Source: an uncultured archaeon
GTDB taxonomy: Archaea; Asgardarchaeota; Lokiarchaeia; Sigyniarchaeales; SOKP01
Reading direction: 5' to 3'
Length of the DNA stretch: 50,168 nucleotides
Assembly: GCA_964583985.1 (NCBI GenBank)
Contig: CAZOYD010000022.1
Coordinates: forward strand, 1-50,168
Shown: one piece after another, positions 1-27,842 of the stretch
Position numbering within the stretch: position 1 is the stretch's first letter
How the letters are laid out: every line of letters starts with the position of its first letter
Notes under the pieces: model-generated
Seen by the model: the letters and a program-made list of their open reading frames with translations, nothing else
What the model was told of the DNA's origin: nothing
The model's database searches: none
Position numbers and translations under genes: made by a program

Positions 1-144
1 AACTCTGCATTGAAAAATATGAAGATTTTCCAGAAATGGGACGATTTGCCGTGCGCGACATGGGTAGTAGCATACTGAATATCTCAGTAGCAGCCTAAAA
101 CTGTCTGCGTCGGCATCGTAAAAGACTTAGAAACCGGAGCGTAA
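1..144 (+). CDS. tuf: Translation elongation factor EF-1alpha (aEF-1A), 3' end only (5'-partial); interrupted by a putative 31-nt intron (exons <1..67 and 99..144)
   Basis: The frame starting at nt 3 reads LCIEKYEDFPEMGRFAVRDMG, then SSILNISVAA* (TAA 96-98). A second frame from 97 reads KTVCVGIVKDLETGA* (TAA 142-144). Joined, they match the EF-1alpha domain III end (xxExFxxFPxLGRFAVRDMGxTVAVGxV). Confidence 0.88.
68..98 (+). other. Putative BHB/BHL-type (tRNA-endonuclease-spliced) intron in mRNA, 31 nt: TAGCATACTGAATATCTCAGTAGCAGCCTAA
   Basis: Central 4-bp helix GGGU(62-65)/GCCU(93-96); bulges AGU(66-68) and AAA(97-99); internal hairpin UACUGA(73-78)/UCAGUA(84-89); long exon-exon helix 41-61/100-119. 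Cutting after the 2nd nt of each bulge restores the frame (ATG GGT AG^A ACT GTC). Confidence 0.78.
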
Positions 145-498: not shown

Positions 499-3400
499 AT
501 GACTGAACCAAAACCAGAACCAAAAAACCAAAATGCAATTTCGCTCTATTGTCCAGACTGCAATACCAAGATCCCACCGGAAATAATAGAAAACAACAAT
601 GATCCAAGCACCGTCTATTGCCCACATTGCGGTGTTATCATACCAATCGAGCCACAAATCGAGATCCCTGAAATAACTCAAGAAAAAAGTGAAGAAAGCC
701 CTCAAATACAAGTACAACAACCATCACCGAGAAGAACAGCCAAGTGGCATCTCAAACTCCTTGTTTATTTTGCCATCCATGACTTGCTTTACAGCAAGGT
801 AAGTCCCCTCCTTAAAATCAAAAAGCAGAAACAATTGCGTTCAATCACCCTCAAGCGATACGCAAAACAACTCCGATCAAAATTGTTATACAGTCCTATC
901 TCACGCGATTTTCTAACAAGATTAAACCCAAGGGAGCAAAGGAAGCTCAAACGAGTATTTCAACAGTTCAAGGAAACCATTAAGGATAAAAAGCAGTTTA
1001 GGAAGTATCAGATCCAATCCTTCATGGAAGGAATTCAATTTATTTTCGACGTGATGAGTGGTGATTACGAGTGCGTTACTTTTTCCTCCACGGAAAAGGA
1101 AATTATCATGGAACTCAAGGATAAGGTCAACCCATTCAAAGACATGAGGAGTAAAAGATCCCTTGGACGGGCGATCACCGTCATTTTTGCGCGTATCATT
1201 CACCAGCGCCTTTTTGCACTTTCTCGAACGAATGAACCGCTCACGCCTGATTTAATGAAAGAATTCGTAGATCGGTTTATTGACCAACTTAGTGCTCAAG
1301 ACTGTATCGAATGGATCGAATCGCAGGTCAACATCAAGCTGGACCACAGGGAAAAACAAGCCCTAAAGACGATCCAGGTGCGATTGAACAACGATTGGAT
1401 CCAAGGTGAATATTTTTCGGATCTCCTCATTTCAACTATAGACGCGGTGCACGCACTCATGGATAACATGACGGGCGAAGTTCCTACGAATGAGTTTAGT
1501 AGGATCCTCTTGCAAGGATTTGAAAAAAGTGAATTATTTCGACTTGACAAGGCTTTCTCGAATAGAGAAAAGCTGAACATCACCATCGTGCTCGCTCGAA
1601 TGATTTACGCTCAAATCTTCGTGGCATTTCCTCCTCCAAGGCAAATTAATCCGAATCAAAAATTACCCCCAGCACTACATCGAGACATCGGTGACACGAT
1701 TCTCGAAGGGTTAGTAGATCACCTTGAAATCAACTCCGAATTTTTGTTGCGGTTTTATAACTTCGCGCTAGATAAATTTCATGCTGCAATCGAAAAATTA
1801 CTCGAAAAACTGGAAGGCGACATGATCTACCGCGCGAGCTTTAAAATATTCCTTACGAACCTCATCGAGACCGTGTTCAAGGTAACCCGCCAGGAACCGA
1901 AAGAATCGAAACTTTCCCCTTTGGAACTAAGAATACGGGAAGACCTCGAATTATATCCCTATGATTGGAGGAAAAAAAATTTCAAACTCTTTGAAGATGA
2001 AAAGGAAACAGACTCCATTGAACCATCTGATGATCTTTACCACCCTTCAGACCTAGAAAAAATACCTGTAGAATTTGGACTAAGAAATTTCCAGACTTTT
2101 CAAACCAAATCATCTCTACTTGAACTTATTAAGACATGCATTGAACAAATAATTATAAATAGAGGAGAATTAGCAAGATTTCATAGAGAAGACCTCAAGA
2201 ATAAATTTGAGCAATCTAATTTTGAAAAAGGTTTTAAATTCAGAAAGAGCGGCTTATTTTCAGAGAATTCAAAGTCAGATATAAATTCCATATATAAATT
2301 CATATCTCCTCATAATATCGGTGTATTTTTGGGTGCAAGATCTGATACTATTAGAAAATGGGTCTCAGCGATTGAGAATGAAGAAATTTATTTTCACACG
2401 TTAACAGAAGCAGAAAAAGCTTTTAGAAAGTTAAGACCAAGAATATTAGGTTTATTTGGAGGTAAGGGTAAGAATATCGAAAAAGGGAGGGTATTAATTG
2501 AAAACGCAATTAAAAAAGTTCTTGTTGATTATTTCGGAGAATTAGACTATATAAAAAAAATCATAACACTCCTTGAGGATTGTACGATCTGGGAAAGAAA
2601 ATCAGACTCCAAAGAACACCCCAATAGTATGAAATCTATATCTCTTGCATTAGGACAGAATAGAAGTTATATAAGTTATAAAACTCGAACAAGTGAAACC
2701 GATAAAGAATTTAATGAGTTTGTAAGCATATTCAATTTCACTACAAATATTCTACGAATAAAAAAGAAAGATTTCGATTTTAAAAGTGAAGCTAAGTATT
2801 ATGAATTCCGAACCAAAGCTTTGGAAATATATTTTGAAGAATTAGTCGAACAAGGTATTTTTATTGAAGAATTGAAACTACAATATGATGCTTTAGTATA
2901 TACTCTTTTTGCTCTAACTCAAGCGAGATTTGAGGAATTAAAAGATACTCCTAATGAACTGCAAAAATATATTACTGACAAAAATCCTCAAGGTTTTTTT
3001 TCTATTAAAGACCTCAGTAAGCACACCTCTCAATTTGATAGAAGGCACGGAATTCAAGAAAATATTAAAAGTGACACTTGGATGTCCCCAGAAAAAGTAT
3101 CAAGTATACAGGCTTTACTAATAGATAAGCAAAAATTTGCTCCTAAAACCATTACTCACGCTCAAGTTTTGATAAAAGAGCTTCCTCGACATCGAGTTAA
3201 GAATCGAGCAAGTTATGTGGGTCGAAACTCACATCCAATATTGGAGAATTGGTTAAGAAAAGCATTATTTGATAAAGGAATAGAGTCACGACATGAGCAA
3301 TATTTTAACCTACCAATTAGCCAACATCGAATTGATTCATTGATTGATGTTACACAAAAGGGATTTTTGGATTTCGTATCGAAAGATCTAAAAACATACA

Positions 3401-3822
3401 TAGAATCTAATAAATTTAATTACCTCTTTATAGATTTCAACATCCCAAGCGTAATTAAAGCTGAGAAAACGGCAAGTAAAGGTATTAAGTTTTACCATTC
3501 AGAAGACCATCCTTTATACATAGTCTTTTATGGTCCATATGGGTCAAAAGCGGTTGATGCTGTACGCAAGAAATTGGAACAATTGGATAACATTCAACAC
3601 AAAGAAGGTATTCGTTTAATCAACATTTTTGAGTTTGTTGATTTATTGGGCTTAGCAAATAAATGTACGGAAGAGTTAATTGGAATTAATGATCTCATAA
3701 AGCGTGCTTTATACGATAGAGCTGAAGGACTCCCCGATCTTAAAAACTTGGAAGAAATGGCAGATGATGCATTATTAGAATTAAAGAATTATGAGAATAA
3801 AATTTTAGGAGAAAATAAATAG
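499..3822 (+). CDS. Large multidomain protein: N-terminal Zn ribbon, three degenerate helical repeats, HTH-like segments, C-terminal PD-(D/E)xK-like nuclease domain
   Basis: CPDC...CPHC. Repeats begin LKLLVYFAIH / ITVIFARIIH / ITIVLARMIY. C-terminal GRNSHPILE...RHEQYF...RIDSLI...LFIDFN resembles a restriction-endonuclease-like fold. The ORF is solid; the nuclease call is tentative. Confidence 0.55.
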   Translation: MTEPKPEPKNQNAISLYCPDCNTKIPPEIIENNNDPSTVYCPHCGVIIPIEPQIEIPEITQEKSEESPQIQVQQPSPRRTAKWHLKLLVYFAIHDLLYSKVSPLLKIKKQKQLRSITLKRYAKQLRSKLLYSPISRDFLTRLNPREQRKLKRVFQQFKETIKDKKQFRKYQIQSFMEGIQFIFDVMSGDYECVTFSSTEKEIIMELKDKVNPFKDMRSKRSLGRAITVIFARIIHQRLFALSRTNEPLTPDLMKEFVDRFIDQLSAQDCIEWIESQVNIKLDHREKQALKTIQVRLNNDWIQGEYFSDLLISTIDAVHALMDNMTGEVPTNEFSRILLQGFEKSELFRLDKAFSNREKLNITIVLARMIYAQIFVAFPPPRQINPNQKLPPALHRDIGDTILEGLVDHLEINSEFLLRFYNFALDKFHAAIEKLLEKLEGDMIYRASFKIFLTNLIETVFKVTRQEPKESKLSPLELRIREDLELYPYDWRKKNFKLFEDEKETDSIEPSDDLYHPSDLEKIPVEFGLRNFQTFQTKSSLLELIKTCIEQIIINRGELARFHREDLKNKFEQSNFEKGFKFRKSGLFSENSKSDINSIYKFISPHNIGVFLGARSDTIRKWVSAIENEEIYFHTLTEAEKAFRKLRPRILGLFGGKGKNIEKGRVLIENAIKKVLVDYFGELDYIKKIITLLEDCTIWERKSDSKEHPNSMKSISLALGQNRSYISYKTRTSETDKEFNEFVSIFNFTTNILRIKKKDFDFKSEAKYYEFRTKALEIYFEELVEQGIFIEELKLQYDALVYTLFALTQARFEELKDTPNELQKYITDKNPQGFFSIKDLSKHTSQFDRRHGIQENIKSDTWMSPEKVSSIQALLIDKQKFAPKTITHAQVLIKELPRHRVKNRASYVGRNSHPILENWLRKALFDKGIESRHEQYFNLPISQHRIDSLIDVTQKGFLDFVSKDLKTYIESNKFNYLFIDFNIPSVIKAEKTASKGIKFYHSEDHPLYIVFYGPYGSKAVDAVRKKLEQLDNIQHKEGIRLINIFEFVDLLGLANKCTEELIGINDLIKRALYDRAEGLPDLKNLEEMADDALLELKNYENKILGENK

Positions 3823-26036: not shown

Positions 26037-27842
26037 ATGCCAAGCGAAAAAGAAAAAGTAATAAGGGCTCCAATAGCATGTATATTAGGGCATATCGATC
26101 ATGGAAAAACTTCGCTTCTCGATTATATTCGAGGAACCATAGTCCAACAAAGGGAAGCTGCTGGAATTACTCAACACATTGGAGCTTCCTATTTTCCAAT
26201 GGATGACATTAAAGCTTTTTTAGGAAAATCAAAACAAGAATTTGCTGACAAGGATATTAAATTACCCGGTATATTAATAGTCGATACACCCGGGCACGCT
26301 GCTTTTTTAAATTTGAGGAAACGAGGGGGCGCTGTGGCGGATATTGCCATCTTGGTCATCGATGTAACTGCTGGTACCATGCCAATCACGTGGGAATCAG
26401 TAAGAATATTACGAGAACGAAAAACTCCTTTTATAATTGCTGCAAATAAGATTGACAGAATCTCCGGTTGGAAATCCATACAGAACGCTGATTTTTTAGA
26501 CACTTATAAATCGCAGAAACAGCACGTGAAAGATTTTTTAGATGAAAAAATATTTCAAATCATAGGAAATTTTCTTGAAGAAGGATTTAAAGATTTAGAT
26601 CGTTATGATAAGATTACTGATTTTACAAAAAAAATAGCAATCGTTCCCACAAGTGCAAAAACGGGCGAAGGGATTTCCACCTTGCTAATGATTTTAATGG
26701 GTTTAGTTCAACAATACTTGACAGCAAATTTACAATTTTCAGAAGGACCCGCGAAAGGAGTGGTCTTGGAGGTAAAGAAAGAAAAAGGGCAAGGAATCAC
26801 TATGGATATCTTAATTTATGATGGCATTTTACGGAAAGGTGATGAGTTCTATGTGGGCGGATTAGAACAACCCATTAAATCAAAAGTACGAGCCATATTG
26901 CGTCCAAAACCGCTTGATGAGATCCGAGATCCTCGTCAAAAATTTGATTCTGAAGACTTTGTAAGTGCCGCTGCCGGAGTGAGAATTTTGGCTCCAAATA
27001 TCGATGATGTCGTTGCTGGATCTCCATTTAAGGTAATTAGCTCCACTTCTGAAGAAGAAAAGATTTACAATGAGATTAATGATGAAGTTCAAGCCATCCG
27101 AATTAAAACAGATAAAGCAGGAGTCGTTTTAAAAGCGGATACTCTTGGATCACTAGAAGCGTTAGAAAATCATTTCAGTTTAAGTGGTGTGAAAATCAGC
27201 ATAGCGGATGTAGGCCCTATTAAAAAAGAGGATGTTATTAATGCAAATATTGTCAAGGTTTTTGATCCCTATTCTGCTGCCGTTCTTGGTTTTAATGTTA
27301 AAATATTGCCCGAAGCACAAGAACAAGCCATCACTGATAATATTAGGATTTTTACAAACAACGTCATTTATCGATTATTAGAGGACTATATTGAGTATGC
27401 CGAAGTAAGGAAAGCTGAAGATACGGCAAGGGGTTTGAGCGAATTGATGTTACCAGCAAAACTTAAAATGCTTCCTGATTATATTTTTAGAAATTCTGAT
27501 CCTGCTGTATTTGGCGTGAAAGTGGAAGCTGGAACGCTTTTTCCGAAAGTCCCATTGGTTACTGATAAGGGAAAAAAAGTTAGGCGAATTCATCAGATTC
27601 AAGATAAAGGAAAAACGTTAGATAAGGCTGATATCGATTCTGAGGTCGCTATTTCTATTCGAGGAATTGAAATTGGTAAGGATCTGGGTAAGGATGAAAC
27701 TCTTTTTGTGGCTATCCCAGAATCACACGTGAGACAATTACTCGGAAAATTTGTAAATGAACTCACTACTGATCAAAAAGCGGCTCTTAGAGAATATATT
27801 ATACTCATGAGAAAGGTAAATCACGCCTGGTGGGGCATGTAA
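26037..27842 (+). CDS. infB: Translation initiation factor aIF5B (IF-2)
   Basis: IRAPIACILGHIDHGKT, EAAGITQHIGA, DTPGH, NKID, KADTLGSLEAL. Confidence 0.97.
   Translation: MPSEKEKVIRAPIACILGHIDHGKTSLLDYIRGTIVQQREAAGITQHIGASYFPMDDIKAFLGKSKQEFADKDIKLPGILIVDTPGHAAFLNLRKRGGAVADIAILVIDVTAGTMPITWESVRILRERKTPFIIAANKIDRISGWKSIQNADFLDTYKSQKQHVKDFLDEKIFQIIGNFLEEGFKDLDRYDKITDFTKKIAIVPTSAKTGEGISTLLMILMGLVQQYLTANLQFSEGPAKGVVLEVKKEKGQGITMDILIYDGILRKGDEFYVGGLEQPIKSKVRAILRPKPLDEIRDPRQKFDSEDFVSAAAGVRILAPNIDDVVAGSPFKVISSTSEEEKIYNEINDEVQAIRIKTDKAGVVLKADTLGSLEALENHFSLSGVKISIADVGPIKKEDVINANIVKVFDPYSAAVLGFNVKILPEAQEQAITDNIRIFTNNVIYRLLEDYIEYAEVRKAEDTARGLSELMLPAKLKMLPDYIFRNSDPAVFGVKVEAGTLFPKVPLVTDKGKKVRRIHQIQDKGKTLDKADIDSEVAISIRGIEIGKDLGKDETLFVAIPESHVRQLLGKFVNELTTDQKAALREYIILMRKVNHAWWGM

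What the first reader, a model, noticed from the sequence alone, without database searches (positions are those of the whole stretch)
41..119. Candidate tRNA-type (BHB/BHL) intron inside an Asgard EF-1alpha mRNA
Seen: the EF-1alpha frame breaks right after GRFAVRDMG (TAA at 96-98), and the missing conserved tail TVCVGIVKDL resumes 31 nt later in another frame. The RNA can fold as follows. Exon-exon helix: ACGAU(41-45)/AUCGU(115-119), GCCG(48-51)/CGGC(111-114), GCGC(53-56)/GCGU(107-110), GACA(57-60)/UGUC(102-105), U61-A100. Central 4-bp helix: GGGU(62-65)/GCCU(93-96). Bulges: AGU(66-68) and AAA(97-99). Intron stem: GC(70-71)/GC(90-91) plus UACUGA(73-78)/UCAGUA(84-89) with loop AUAUC. An A69.A92 mismatch makes the 5' site a relaxed BHL-like loop. 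Established: archaeal EndA cuts after the second nucleotide of each bulge and RtcB ligates; the classic protein-coding example is the crenarchaeal cbf5 intron. Applying that rule removes exactly 68..98 and gives ATG GGT AGA ACT GTC = M-G-R-T-V, the expected EF-1alpha sequence. Inference: EndA/RtcB-dependent mRNA splicing of a core translation factor in a close prokaryotic relative of eukaryotes. Gene callers would miss it and annotate a truncated protein.
Basis: partly seen in the sequence, partly recalled or inferred. Interest (0 to 1): 0.93.

Follow-up and report, generated by a model that had tools for sequence, protein, structure and literature searches.

The report
tRNA-type mini-intron in Asgard EF-1alpha
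The only gene for the essential translation factor EF-1alpha in this Asgard archaeon is broken 15 codons before its end by a 31-base hairpin shaped like a tRNA intron, so its mRNA almost certainly has to be cut and rejoined by the tRNA-splicing enzymes, which papers I could search document inside an archaeal coding sequence for one gene only (cbf5).

Summary
No spliced RNA has been seen.

- **The insert.** Window 68-98 is a 31-nt insert in the single-copy EF-1alpha gene. Its 5' 1.25 kb lies intact on contig C2. An independent 5.6-kb contig, 99.8% identical, validates the C2/C22 join.
- **Boundaries.** The nearest intronless relative reads ATGGGTAG|AAC. That fixes the insert at exactly 68..98, the two cut sites predicted by the bulge-helix-bulge (BHB) rule.
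- **Not an artefact.** The same insert occurs in at least six independent assemblies.
- **Other alleles.** Five further alleles (30 nt, different sequence, one slid by 1 nt) sit at the same Arg codon in other lineages. All form the 4-bp central helix in register. Of 14 pairs, 8 show compensatory changes (0/500 shuffles; slid controls collapse).
- **Selection.** Intron-bearing genes are under purifying selection (29 of 30 differing codons synonymous).
- **Predicted product exists.** A database protein equals the predicted spliced product.
- **Host machinery.** The genome encodes two EndA paralogues and RtcB, has intron-rich tRNA genes, and has at least two more BHB-split protein genes (leuS and an AIR-synthase-family gene).

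The kind is known from crenarchaeal cbf5, so this is a new member in a new gene and phylum. This scan has already reported such introns on other Asgard DNA, including EF-1alpha at other sites.

The parts
1..67 (+). 3' end of EF-1alpha exon 1, ending with the first two bases (AG) of the Arg codon. The gene starts on contig C2.
   Evidence: Frame 3 reads LCIEKYEDFPEMGRFAVRDMG. C2 carries an intact 417-codon upstream part and overlaps window 1-55 exactly. Contig L151 is 99.78% identical, without gaps, across the join.
68..98 (+). 31-nt BHB-type intron, phase 2 in Arg codon AG|A. Unspliced reading stops at TAA 96-98.
   Evidence: The empty site in G022 reads ATGGGTAG|AACGG. An identical insert is found in G006, L151, L152, L153 and L154. 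The BHB register was checked.
99..144 (+). EF-1alpha exon 2: the last base of the Arg codon, then TVCVGIVKDLETGA and stop (142-144).
   Evidence: Translation. Own versus G006: 4 synonymous and 2 tail changes in exon 2. P0129 ends with exactly this tail.
62..65 (+). Central 4-bp helix H, exon strand (GGGU), pairing with 93-96.
   Evidence: All four pairs are valid in all alleles. The pair 65/93 is U.G, A-U, G-C, C-G or U-A across alleles.
93..96 (+). Central 4-bp helix H, intron strand (GCCU).
66..68 (+). 5' bulge AGU; predicted cut between 67 and 68.
   Evidence: The rule 'between the second and third bulge residue' comes from PMC2738675. It coincides with the comparative boundary.
97..99 (+). 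3' bulge AAA; predicted cut between 98 and 99.
   Evidence: Same evidence as for the 5' bulge. The minimum-energy fold instead leaves 98-101 unpaired.
69..92 (+). Intron hairpin h': A69.A92 mismatch, G70-C91, C71-G90, A72 bulge, 73-78/84-89, loop 79-83.
   Evidence: Fold. Five of nine h' pairs show compensatory changes among alleles.
41..61 (+). Exon 1 strand of the exon-exon helix h (pairs with 100-119).
   Evidence: Fold. Only partly kept in other alleles, so the exon side of the motif is relaxed.
100..119 (+). Exon 2 strand of the exon-exon helix h, with C101 bulged.

Best explanation
Window 68-98 is an archaeal bulge-helix-bulge (tRNA-type) intron inside the coding sequence of the organism's only EF-1alpha gene.

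**Proposed mechanism**
1. In the pre-mRNA, four exon bases (GGGU, 62-65) pair with the 3' end of the insert (GCCU, 93-96).
2. That helix is flanked by two 3-nt bulges on opposite strands (AGU 66-68, AAA 97-99), an intron hairpin, and an exon-exon helix.
3. The splicing endonuclease EndA, here probably a two-subunit (alpha-beta)2 enzyme, cuts after the second base of each bulge (67|68 and 98|99).
4. RtcB joins the exons.

**Result of splicing.** The Arg codon AG|A and the conserved tail RTVCVGIVKDLETGA are restored, giving a 434-aa protein. The unspliced message would give a 429-aa protein with a wrong tail.

**Shown:** the structure, its register, covariation, selection, and presence of the enzymes.
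**Inferred:** the cleavage and ligation themselves, and the fate of the 31-nt product.
For: **1. Boundaries.** The closest intronless relative (G022) reads ATGGGTAG|AACGG. The insert is therefore exactly 68..98, which equals the BHB cut sites. The cut rule is taken from PMC2738675.

**2. Real DNA.**
- An identical insert is present in G006 (JAGXNQ010000177.1), L151, L152, L153 and L154, from different samples.
- L151 spans the C2/C22 join at 99.78% identity over 4598 nt.

**3. Homologous alleles elsewhere.** L105, L106/L107, L108/L109, L110 and G240 carry 30-nt inserts of different sequence at the same Arg codon.
- L110 is slid by 1 nt to fit a C|GT codon.
- All contain stop codons.
- All form the 4-bp helix in register and splice to GRFAVRDMGRT...

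**4. Covariation on alignment A2.**
- 91.7% of cells are paired.
- 8 of 14 pairs have changes on both sides.
- 0 of 500 shuffles reach any measure.
- Slid controls pair at only 27-49%.

**5. Selection.**
- Own versus L153: 30 codons differ, 29 synonymously.
- Own versus G006: 136 differ, 110 synonymously.
- Exon 2 changes are synonymous or lie in the variable tail.

**6. Single copy.** This is the only EF-1alpha in a genome rated 100% complete, and the upstream 417 codons are intact.

**7. Predicted product exists.** P0129 (434 aa) is identical to the own protein through RDMG and then reads RTVCVGIVKDLETGA.

**8. Host machinery and context.**
- Two EndA paralogues, one closest to the Aeropyrum pernix alpha subunit (E = 1e-36), plus RtcB.
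- Asgard EndA is reported as the broad-specificity (alpha-beta)2 type (PMC5829648).
- ARAGORN finds 13 of 22 detectable tRNA genes interrupted.
- leuS and an AIR-synthase-family gene are split by 30-nt BHB inserts.
Against: - No RNA evidence: no spliced junction, excised or circular intron, or peptide was available.
- The own motif is relaxed. There is an A69.A92 mismatch and an A72 bulge in h'. Only one exon-exon pair (U61-A100) lies before a C101 bulge. Two of the four central pairs are G.U. The minimum-energy fold prefers a 5-bp helix with a 4-nt 3' bulge.
- The exon-exon helix is not kept in all alleles.
- Contigs C2 and C22 are linked in this assembly only by a 55-nt overlap at a graph branch, although L151 supports the link.
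- P0129 shows that near-identical intronless alleles exist. The intron is therefore dispensable and polymorphic.
Confidence: 0.85

Rival explanations
1. Translational recoding. The ribosome gets past the insert by a programmed frameshift, a hop (as in T4 gene 60), or stop-codon read-through, without RNA splicing.
For: A stable hairpin directly follows the break. In five alleles the insert is 30 nt and in frame.
Against: - The Arg codon is assembled from two bases before and one base after the insert (AG|A; C|GT in L110). A hop cannot do that.
- No matching take-off and landing codons are seen.
- One mechanism would have to handle a 31-nt frameshifting insert and 30-nt inserts with TGA or TAA stops.
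- Read-through would put 10 foreign residues into a conserved strand.
- Covariation links the third base of the Gly codon to the 3' end of the insert at the exact BHB register. Recoding does not predict this.
Confidence: 0.04
2. Inactivated allele (pseudogene), or an allele that makes a working C-terminally altered EF-1alpha. The insert is simply a tolerated lesion near the 3' end.
For: Only the last 15 codons are affected. Intronless alleles with identical protein exist (P0129), so mixed populations occur.
Against: - The gene is the only EF-1alpha in a genome rated 100% complete.
- Intron-bearing alleles evolve under strong purifying selection, including exon 2 in the post-splice frame.
- The insert has persisted across several lineages with compensatory changes that preserve a splicing motif.
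Confidence: 0.04
3. Assembly or binning artefact. The insert, or the link between the 5' and 3' parts of the gene, is not real.
For: - The window starts at a contig end with a 55-nt overlap to C2, which is a de Bruijn graph branch.
- Contigs end at or in the insert in G001, G023, L104 and L152.
Against: - The identical insert occurs in at least six assemblies from different samples and pipelines.
- G006 and L151 carry the whole gene plus insert on one contig.
- Sequence-divergent alleles occur at the same site in other lineages.
Confidence: 0.01
4. The insert is removed from RNA, but by something other than EndA and RtcB, for example another endonuclease or ligase pair, or by DNA-level excision.
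For: No enzyme assay exists for any Asgard EndA (stated in bioRxiv 10.64898/2026.10.13.758758). The own motif is not strictly canonical.
Against: - The geometry (3-nt bulge, 4-bp helix, 3-nt bulge, cuts after the second bulge base) is the defining EndA substrate and is the conserved feature.
- EndA and RtcB are encoded.
- 30-31 nt is too short for self-splicing introns, and no Rfam family matches.
Confidence: 0.05

Closest known systems
BHB-type pre-mRNA intron of cbf5 (pseudouridine synthase) in Crenarchaeota, orders Desulfurococcales and Sulfolobales (Watanabe 2002; Yoshinari 2006; Yokobori 2009, PMC2738675)
   Same: - A short intron inside a coding sequence.
- Often an unconventional or relaxed BHB.
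- Predicted cuts between the second and third bulge residues match the exon borders.
- The host has a hetero-oligomeric, broad-specificity EndA.
- Patchy gain and loss among relatives.
- Gene callers mis-annotate the gene.
   Different: - A different gene (EF-1alpha, an essential translation factor) and a different phylum (Asgard/Promethearchaeota).
- The intron lies 15 codons from the stop.
- Several sequence-divergent alleles exist, plus a 1-nt slide at one site.
- There is presence/absence polymorphism between near-identical strains.
- cbf5 splicing was shown by cDNA and in vitro cleavage. Here there is no RNA evidence.
Archaeal tRNA and rRNA BHB introns (Marck and Grosjean 2003), including the intron-rich tRNA genes of Asgard archaea (bioRxiv 10.64898/2026.10.13.758758)
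   Same: The same motif, the same length class (about 30 nt), the same predicted enzymes, and a host genome with many interrupted tRNA genes.
   Different: [quoted passage not shown] Splicing here decides the reading frame of a protein.
BHB intron in the 5' UTR of Haloferax volcanii HVO_1309 (PMC7714728)
   Same: An mRNA that is a substrate of the archaeal splicing endonuclease.
   Different: That intron is 46 nt, lies in an untranslated leader, and was confirmed by circRNA-seq and in vitro cleavage. It does not interrupt codons.
Unconventional HAC1/XBP1 mRNA splicing in eukaryotes (Ire1 endonuclease plus tRNA ligase or RtcB). Recalled from my own knowledge, not tested here.
   Same: It works alike: protein-enzyme cleavage at two RNA structural sites in an mRNA, and ligation by the tRNA ligase, changes the C-terminal reading frame.
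   Different: Ire1 is unrelated to EndA and recognises stem-loops, not a BHB. That splicing is a regulated stress response, and nothing here shows regulation.

Membership tests
Archaeal BHB (EndA-dependent) intron | [quoted passage not shown] | tested here: met
   Helix 62-65/93-96 with bulges 66-68 and 97-99. All four pairs are valid in all 8 sequences at the register set by the comparative boundaries. Helix H is 100% paired. Caveat: the own minimum-energy fold adds U61-A97.
Archaeal BHB (EndA-dependent) intron | Cuts between the second and third bulge residues give the true exon junction. | tested here: met
   The predicted removal of 68..98 equals the insert defined by the empty site of G022. 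It restores the conserved Arg and the tail in every allele, including the 1-nt-slid L110.
Archaeal BHB (EndA-dependent) intron | Flanking helices h (exon) and h' (intron) directly stacked on the bulges (strict hBHBh'). | tested here: inconclusive
   - Own allele: h' starts with an A.A mismatch and has an A72 bulge. Helix h has one pair, then a C101 bulge, then at least 4 bp.
- L105, L106 and L110 have a canonical h'.
- Helix h is variable.
- So the motif is relaxed, as reported for most cbf5 introns.
Archaeal BHB (EndA-dependent) intron | The structure is conserved by compensatory substitutions. | tested here: met
   8 of 14 pairs have changes on both sides. 0 of 500 shuffles reach any measure, and slid controls pair at 27-49%.
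Archaeal BHB (EndA-dependent) intron | The host encodes EndA (of broad-specificity type for relaxed motifs) and an RtcB ligase. | tested here: met
   - Two EndA-domain ORFs, at C4:51753-51977 and C3:71349-71597.
- Both have the N-terminal and catalytic Pfam domains.
- One is closest to the A. pernix alpha chain 3p1z_B (E = 1e-36).
- RtcB lies at C1:155665-156978.
- The specificity loop (L1) was not examined.
Archaeal BHB (EndA-dependent) intron | Spliced RNA junction, excised or circular intron, or in vitro cleavage observed. | not testable with these tools
   No transcript data could be linked to this allele. P0129 equals the spliced product but lies on a 34.9-kb contig, so it is most likely an intronless DNA allele.
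Programmed translational bypass or frameshift (T4 gene 60 type) | Matched take-off and landing codons; the product is colinear with codons on both sides of the gap. | tested here: not met
   The conserved Arg codon is split AG|A (C|GT in L110). No matched codon pair flanks the insert.
Self-splicing group I or group II intron | A catalytic RNA core of hundreds of nucleotides. | tested here: not met
   The insert is 30-31 nt. There is no Rfam match in the window at gathering threshold, nor at E <= 1 in positions 1-300.

The most novel reading that the evidence does not exclude
**Reading 1: a mobile, still-active intron.** The intron is not a frozen relic but part of an active population of mobile BHB mini-introns in Asgard mRNAs. 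It enters and leaves one preferred site in EF-1alpha. Observations consistent with this:
- at least 6 state changes on the gene tree;
- presence/absence polymorphism between strains with identical protein;
- a 1-nt slide between sister lineages;
- an intron 31/31 identical between genes that are 11.5% diverged.
The route could be reverse splicing, or gene conversion by spliced cDNA.

**Reading 2: a regulatory link.** Because EF-1alpha output then depends on EndA and RtcB, splicing could couple the supply of elongation factor to tRNA-processing capacity. That would be a prokaryotic analogue of HAC1/XBP1-type regulated mRNA splicing in the closest relatives of eukaryotes.
Probability: 0.15. Interest if true: 0.9.

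Novelty: new member of a known kind. Interest (0 to 1): 0.68.

Why it matters
**State of the literature.** In the papers I could search, archaeal splicing inside a protein-coding sequence is documented for cbf5 of Crenarchaeota only. PMC7714728 said so in 2020. No paper in the held library reports it for Asgard archaea.

**What this locus adds.**
- An essential, highly expressed translation factor of an Asgard archaeon depends on the tRNA-splicing machinery.
- It comes with an unusually complete comparative case: empty sites, six sequence-divergent alleles, covariation, and purifying selection.

**Why that is useful.**
- Annotation: EF-1alpha is called truncated in public databases.
- Understanding how protein-dependent splicing spread to mRNAs in the lineage nearest to eukaryotes.
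- A ready substrate for testing Asgard EndA.

**What tempers it.** No RNA evidence is available. The same scan has already found many such introns, including in EF-1alpha at other sites and in other genes of this genome.

Tried and rejected
- **Metagenome pattern scan** (ATGGGTAGTAG..GCCTAAAAC). It returned 8 hits. All were chance matches outside EF-1alpha.
- **Genome-collection scan**. Only G006 was a true hit.
- **DNA of P0129's contig.** It is not retrievable. I could not tell how close the intronless allele is at nucleotide level, nor whether it comes from the same sample.
- **L102/L103 as possible spliced transcripts of the own allele.** These 1366-nt JGI contigs encode a protein identical through residue 415. 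Rejected: they differ at many synonymous sites and use CGA for the Arg codon, so they are an intronless relative.
- **Genome-wide BHB plus ORF-fusion scan of the own genome**. Candidate counts were no higher than with mis-registered decoy pairings because gene junctions dominate. I abandoned it as a census. Only two hand-checked hits were kept (leuS and an AIRS-family gene).
- **In-window hit at 26813-26846.** Rejected: the 'intron' is ordinary coding sequence of an IF2-like GTPase in another frame.
- **Copies of the intron core elsewhere in the genome**. There were 24 matches to a 13-nt degenerate core, roughly what chance would give by my own rough estimate. There is no second copy of the own intron.
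- **Exon hairpin in intronless alleles**. The insertion site falls in a loop, but the fold is not better than shuffles (z from +0.5 to -2.0). A 'pre-formed landing hairpin' is not supported.
- **Two weak EF-1alpha matches per genome in families f16-f18.** These are divergent paralogues, not split genes.

Full report
**1. What is in the sequence**

The window is contig C22 of a 3.8-Mb, 138-contig genome (31.7% G+C) and begins inside the 3' end of an EF-1alpha gene.
- Frame 3 reads ...LCIEKYEDFPEMGRFAVRDMG, then SSILNISVAA, and stops at TAA 96-98.
- The conserved tail TVCVGIVKDLETGA plus stop is read from 100 to 144 in another frame.
- The offset is 31 nt.
- RNAfold of 35-125 gives -32.7 kcal/mol, z = -3.47, and 0 of 200 shuffles fold as well. 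The minimum-energy fold differs in one detail: U61 pairs with A97 rather than A100.

**2. The rest of the gene, and whether the join is real**

- Contig C2 ends with the same 55 nt that begin the window. That is a k = 55 graph junction, so the assembly branched at window position 56, the wobble base of an Arg codon.
- C2 carries an uninterrupted 417-codon upstream part.
- The own genome, rated 100% complete, has no second EF-1alpha. The next best match is a 30%-identical GTPase.
- A contig from another sample (L151, JGI 3300031692, 5660 nt) is 99.78% identical, without gaps, over 4598 nt. It spans the upstream gene, the whole EF-1alpha with the insert, and the downstream genes. The join is therefore correct.
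- The identical insert is also in L152 (100% identical), L153 and L154 (97.8% identical), and G006 (JAGXNQ010000177.1, 'Promethearchaeota archaeon isolate bin12', a different species of the same genus).
- An assembly artefact is excluded.

**3. Boundaries**

- The closest intronless relative, G022, reads ATGGGTAG|AACGGTC at this point, encoding DMGRTVCVGIVKDL. Aligned to it, the insert is exactly 68..98. Moving the 31-nt window by one base either way gives Lys or Ser instead of Arg.
- In the roughly 70 relatives' genes whose sequence I read at this site, the match runs through with Arg here. Search rows for genus, family and phylum show no other break at the junction apart from the cases named here.
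- The published cut rule places cleavage between the second and third residue of each bulge (PMC2738675). Applied to bulges 66-68 and 97-99, it removes the same 68..98.
- Two independent criteria therefore agree to the nucleotide.

**4. More alleles at the same site**

Gene calls that stop just after RDMG led to further contigs:

| Source | Insert |
|---|---|
| L105, L104 (GCA_004196275.1) | 30 nt |
| L106, L107 (two JGI samples) | 30 nt |
| L108, L109 (two JGI samples) | 30 nt |
| L110 (GCA_030619785.1) | 30 nt, slid by 1 nt |
| G240 (species representative) | 30 nt |

- The inserts differ in sequence, but their hairpins share a similar core (own UACUGAAUAUCUCAGUA; compare L106, G240, L108, L110).
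- They are in frame but contain TGA or TAA.
- In L110 the Arg codon is CGT and the insert lies one base earlier (C|..|GT). The central helix is shifted by one base on both strands, so the BHB rule again gives the right junction.
- In all eight sequences the four central pairs are valid at the register fixed by the comparative boundaries. All splice to GRFAVRDMGRT[V/S]...

**5. Covariation**

Alignment A2 is anchored on the boundaries (7 rows, 6 distinct). The BHB structure gives these results:
- 91.7% of cells are paired.
- 8 of 14 pairs have changes on both sides.
- 0 of 500 shuffles reach any of the five measures.
- Sliding the 3' partners by 1-3 columns drops pairing to 27-49%.
- The central-helix pair next to the 5' bulge is U.G, A-U, G-C, C-G or U-A. 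That links the third base of the Gly codon to the fourth base before the end of the intron helix.
- The sequences are related, so the shuffle count is not a probability. The slid controls and the number of pair types are the stronger evidence.

**6. The gene is alive**

Comparisons between intron-bearing alleles:
- Own versus L153 or L154: 30 codons differ, 29 of them synonymously.
- Own versus G006: 136 codons differ, 110 synonymously.
- In exon 2, four of six changes are synonymous. The two amino-acid changes lie in the variable last residues.
- The intron itself is 31/31 identical between own and G006, although the genes differ at 11.5% of positions. The chance expectation is about 0.02 (my calculation).

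A database protein, P0129 (434 aa, recorded on a 34.9-kb JGI contig), is identical to the own protein through RDMG. It then reads RTVCVGIVKDLETGA, which is exactly the predicted spliced product. Its DNA could not be fetched. On a contig of that size it is most likely an intronless allele of a near-identical strain.

This would also explain why so many assemblies break at this site: G000 C2, G001, G023, L104, L152 and the 'partial' P0006. That explanation is an inference.

**7. Distribution**

- On a quick maximum-likelihood tree of 77 EF-1alpha genes, the intron-bearing rows need at least 6 changes of state.
- Own is sister to the intronless L102 (support 96).
- G006 lies in the same five-row clade as intronless G022.
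- G240 and L110 are sisters (support 99).
- L105, L106 and L108/L109 lie elsewhere.
- Among species representatives, 3 of about 120 family genomes with a match carry it (G000, G006, G240), and two are undecided because their contigs end there.
- The pattern is repeated loss, lateral spread, or both, as described for cbf5. The tree is from one gene and is unrooted, so gain and loss cannot be separated.

**8. Host machinery and context**

- The genome has two EndA-domain ORFs of 207 and 205 aa, each with the N-terminal and catalytic Pfam domains. The first is closest to the catalytic alpha chains of crenarchaeal heterotetramers (3p1z_B, E = 1e-36). It also has one RtcB.
- Published work assigns Asgard archaea the (alpha-beta)2 EndA with the loop that confers broad specificity (PMC5829648). 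It also reports heavily interrupted Asgard tRNA genes (bioRxiv 10.64898/2026.10.13.758758).
- ARAGORN finds only 22 tRNA genes here, 13 with introns. That fits many multiply interrupted genes being missed.
- Two more protein genes of this genome are split the same way.
  - leuS has a 30-nt insert at C64:4237-4266. The exon before it matches positions 1-134 of the class-I synthetase profile. The exon after it matches the LeuRS editing domain, profile positions 224-369, and the anticodon-binding domain.
  - An AIR-synthase-family gene has a 30-nt insert at C123:4513-4542, whose fold is a textbook helix-bulge-helix-bulge-helix.
- Relatives of the same genus carry other introns in EF-1alpha, in the P-loop (HG|K) and at GH|ID.

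**9. Rivals**

- *Recoding* cannot assemble an Arg codon from bases on both sides of the insert. It also does not predict the register-specific covariation.
- *A pseudogene* is contradicted by single-copy status and purifying selection.
- *An artefact* is contradicted by six assemblies.
- *Self-splicing* is excluded by size and by the absence of Rfam matches.
- What remains open is only whether EndA and RtcB are the acting enzymes, and whether splicing is efficient or regulated.

**10. Comparison and novelty**

- The mechanism is that of the cbf5 pre-mRNA intron.
- The defining features that can be tested in silico are met. The strict stacking of both flanking helices is the exception, and it is relaxed here as it is in most cbf5 introns.
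- The RNA-level features are untestable with these tools.
- In the library I could search, no paper reports such introns in Asgard protein genes. A 2020 paper still counts cbf5 as the only coding example.
- Earlier notes of this scan report the same kind of intron in many Asgard genomes, in EF-1alpha at other sites, and in other genes of this genome. I used these as leads. I independently confirmed only the P-loop introns in relatives, plus two split genes of my own finding.
- Verdict: a real feature, a new member (new gene, new phylum, new site) of a known kind, well supported by comparative evidence, and awaiting RNA proof.

Noticed in passing
window 1-55 = G000:C2:1-55(-); also G001:C33 end, G023:C1 end, L104 end, L152 end: Contigs of several independent assemblies stop at or inside this intron. 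Together with P0129, an intronless allele with identical protein, this suggests that intron-plus and intron-minus strains co-occur and break the assembly graph.
   Followed up: partly
L016 (G018), L031 (G017), L060 (G042), L041 (G040): about 60 nt upstream of the STMMG codons; L032 (G015): EF-1alpha genes of other species of the same genus carry different mini-introns. One, of roughly 30 nt, lies in the P-loop (GHIDHG|K|STMMG). One lies between GH and IDHGK in G015. The own gene has neither.
   Followed up: partly
G000:C64:4237-4266 (-), locus L156: The leucyl-tRNA synthetase gene is split by a 30-nt hairpin insert. The flanking exons match consecutive parts of the synthetase profiles. Fold z = -3.6.
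   Followed up: yes
G000:C123:4513-4542 (-), locus L157: An AIR-synthase-family gene is split by a 30-nt insert with a textbook helix-bulge-helix-bulge-helix fold: an exon helix of at least 11 bp, a 4-bp central helix, two 3-nt bulges and a 9-bp hairpin. Fold z = -4.8.
   Followed up: partly
own genome, whole (ARAGORN): Only 22 tRNA genes are detectable in a genome rated 100% complete, and 13 of them have introns. Many tRNA genes are presumably too interrupted to be found.
   Followed up: no
G000:C1 about 112,800-112,960 (-): There is a tRNA-like sequence that ARAGORN does not call on this strand. Its T-loop (GGGGGTTCAA..AAATCCCTC) is interrupted by an insert of about 29 nt. The hairpin core of that insert, TTGAAACTCTCAA, is identical to the core of the EF-1alpha intron of L110.
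   Followed up: no
L078 (G240) and L110: Sister EF-1alpha genes (92% nt identity) carry homologous introns. Their position differs by one base (AG|A versus C|GT), and the whole central helix is shifted accordingly. This is an apparent 1-nt intron slide.
   Followed up: partly
window 499-3822 (+): A 1107-aa ORF lies directly downstream of EF-1alpha. It has an N-terminal pair of CxxC motifs (zinc-ribbon-like). It is conserved in position in L151. Its function was not examined.
   Followed up: no
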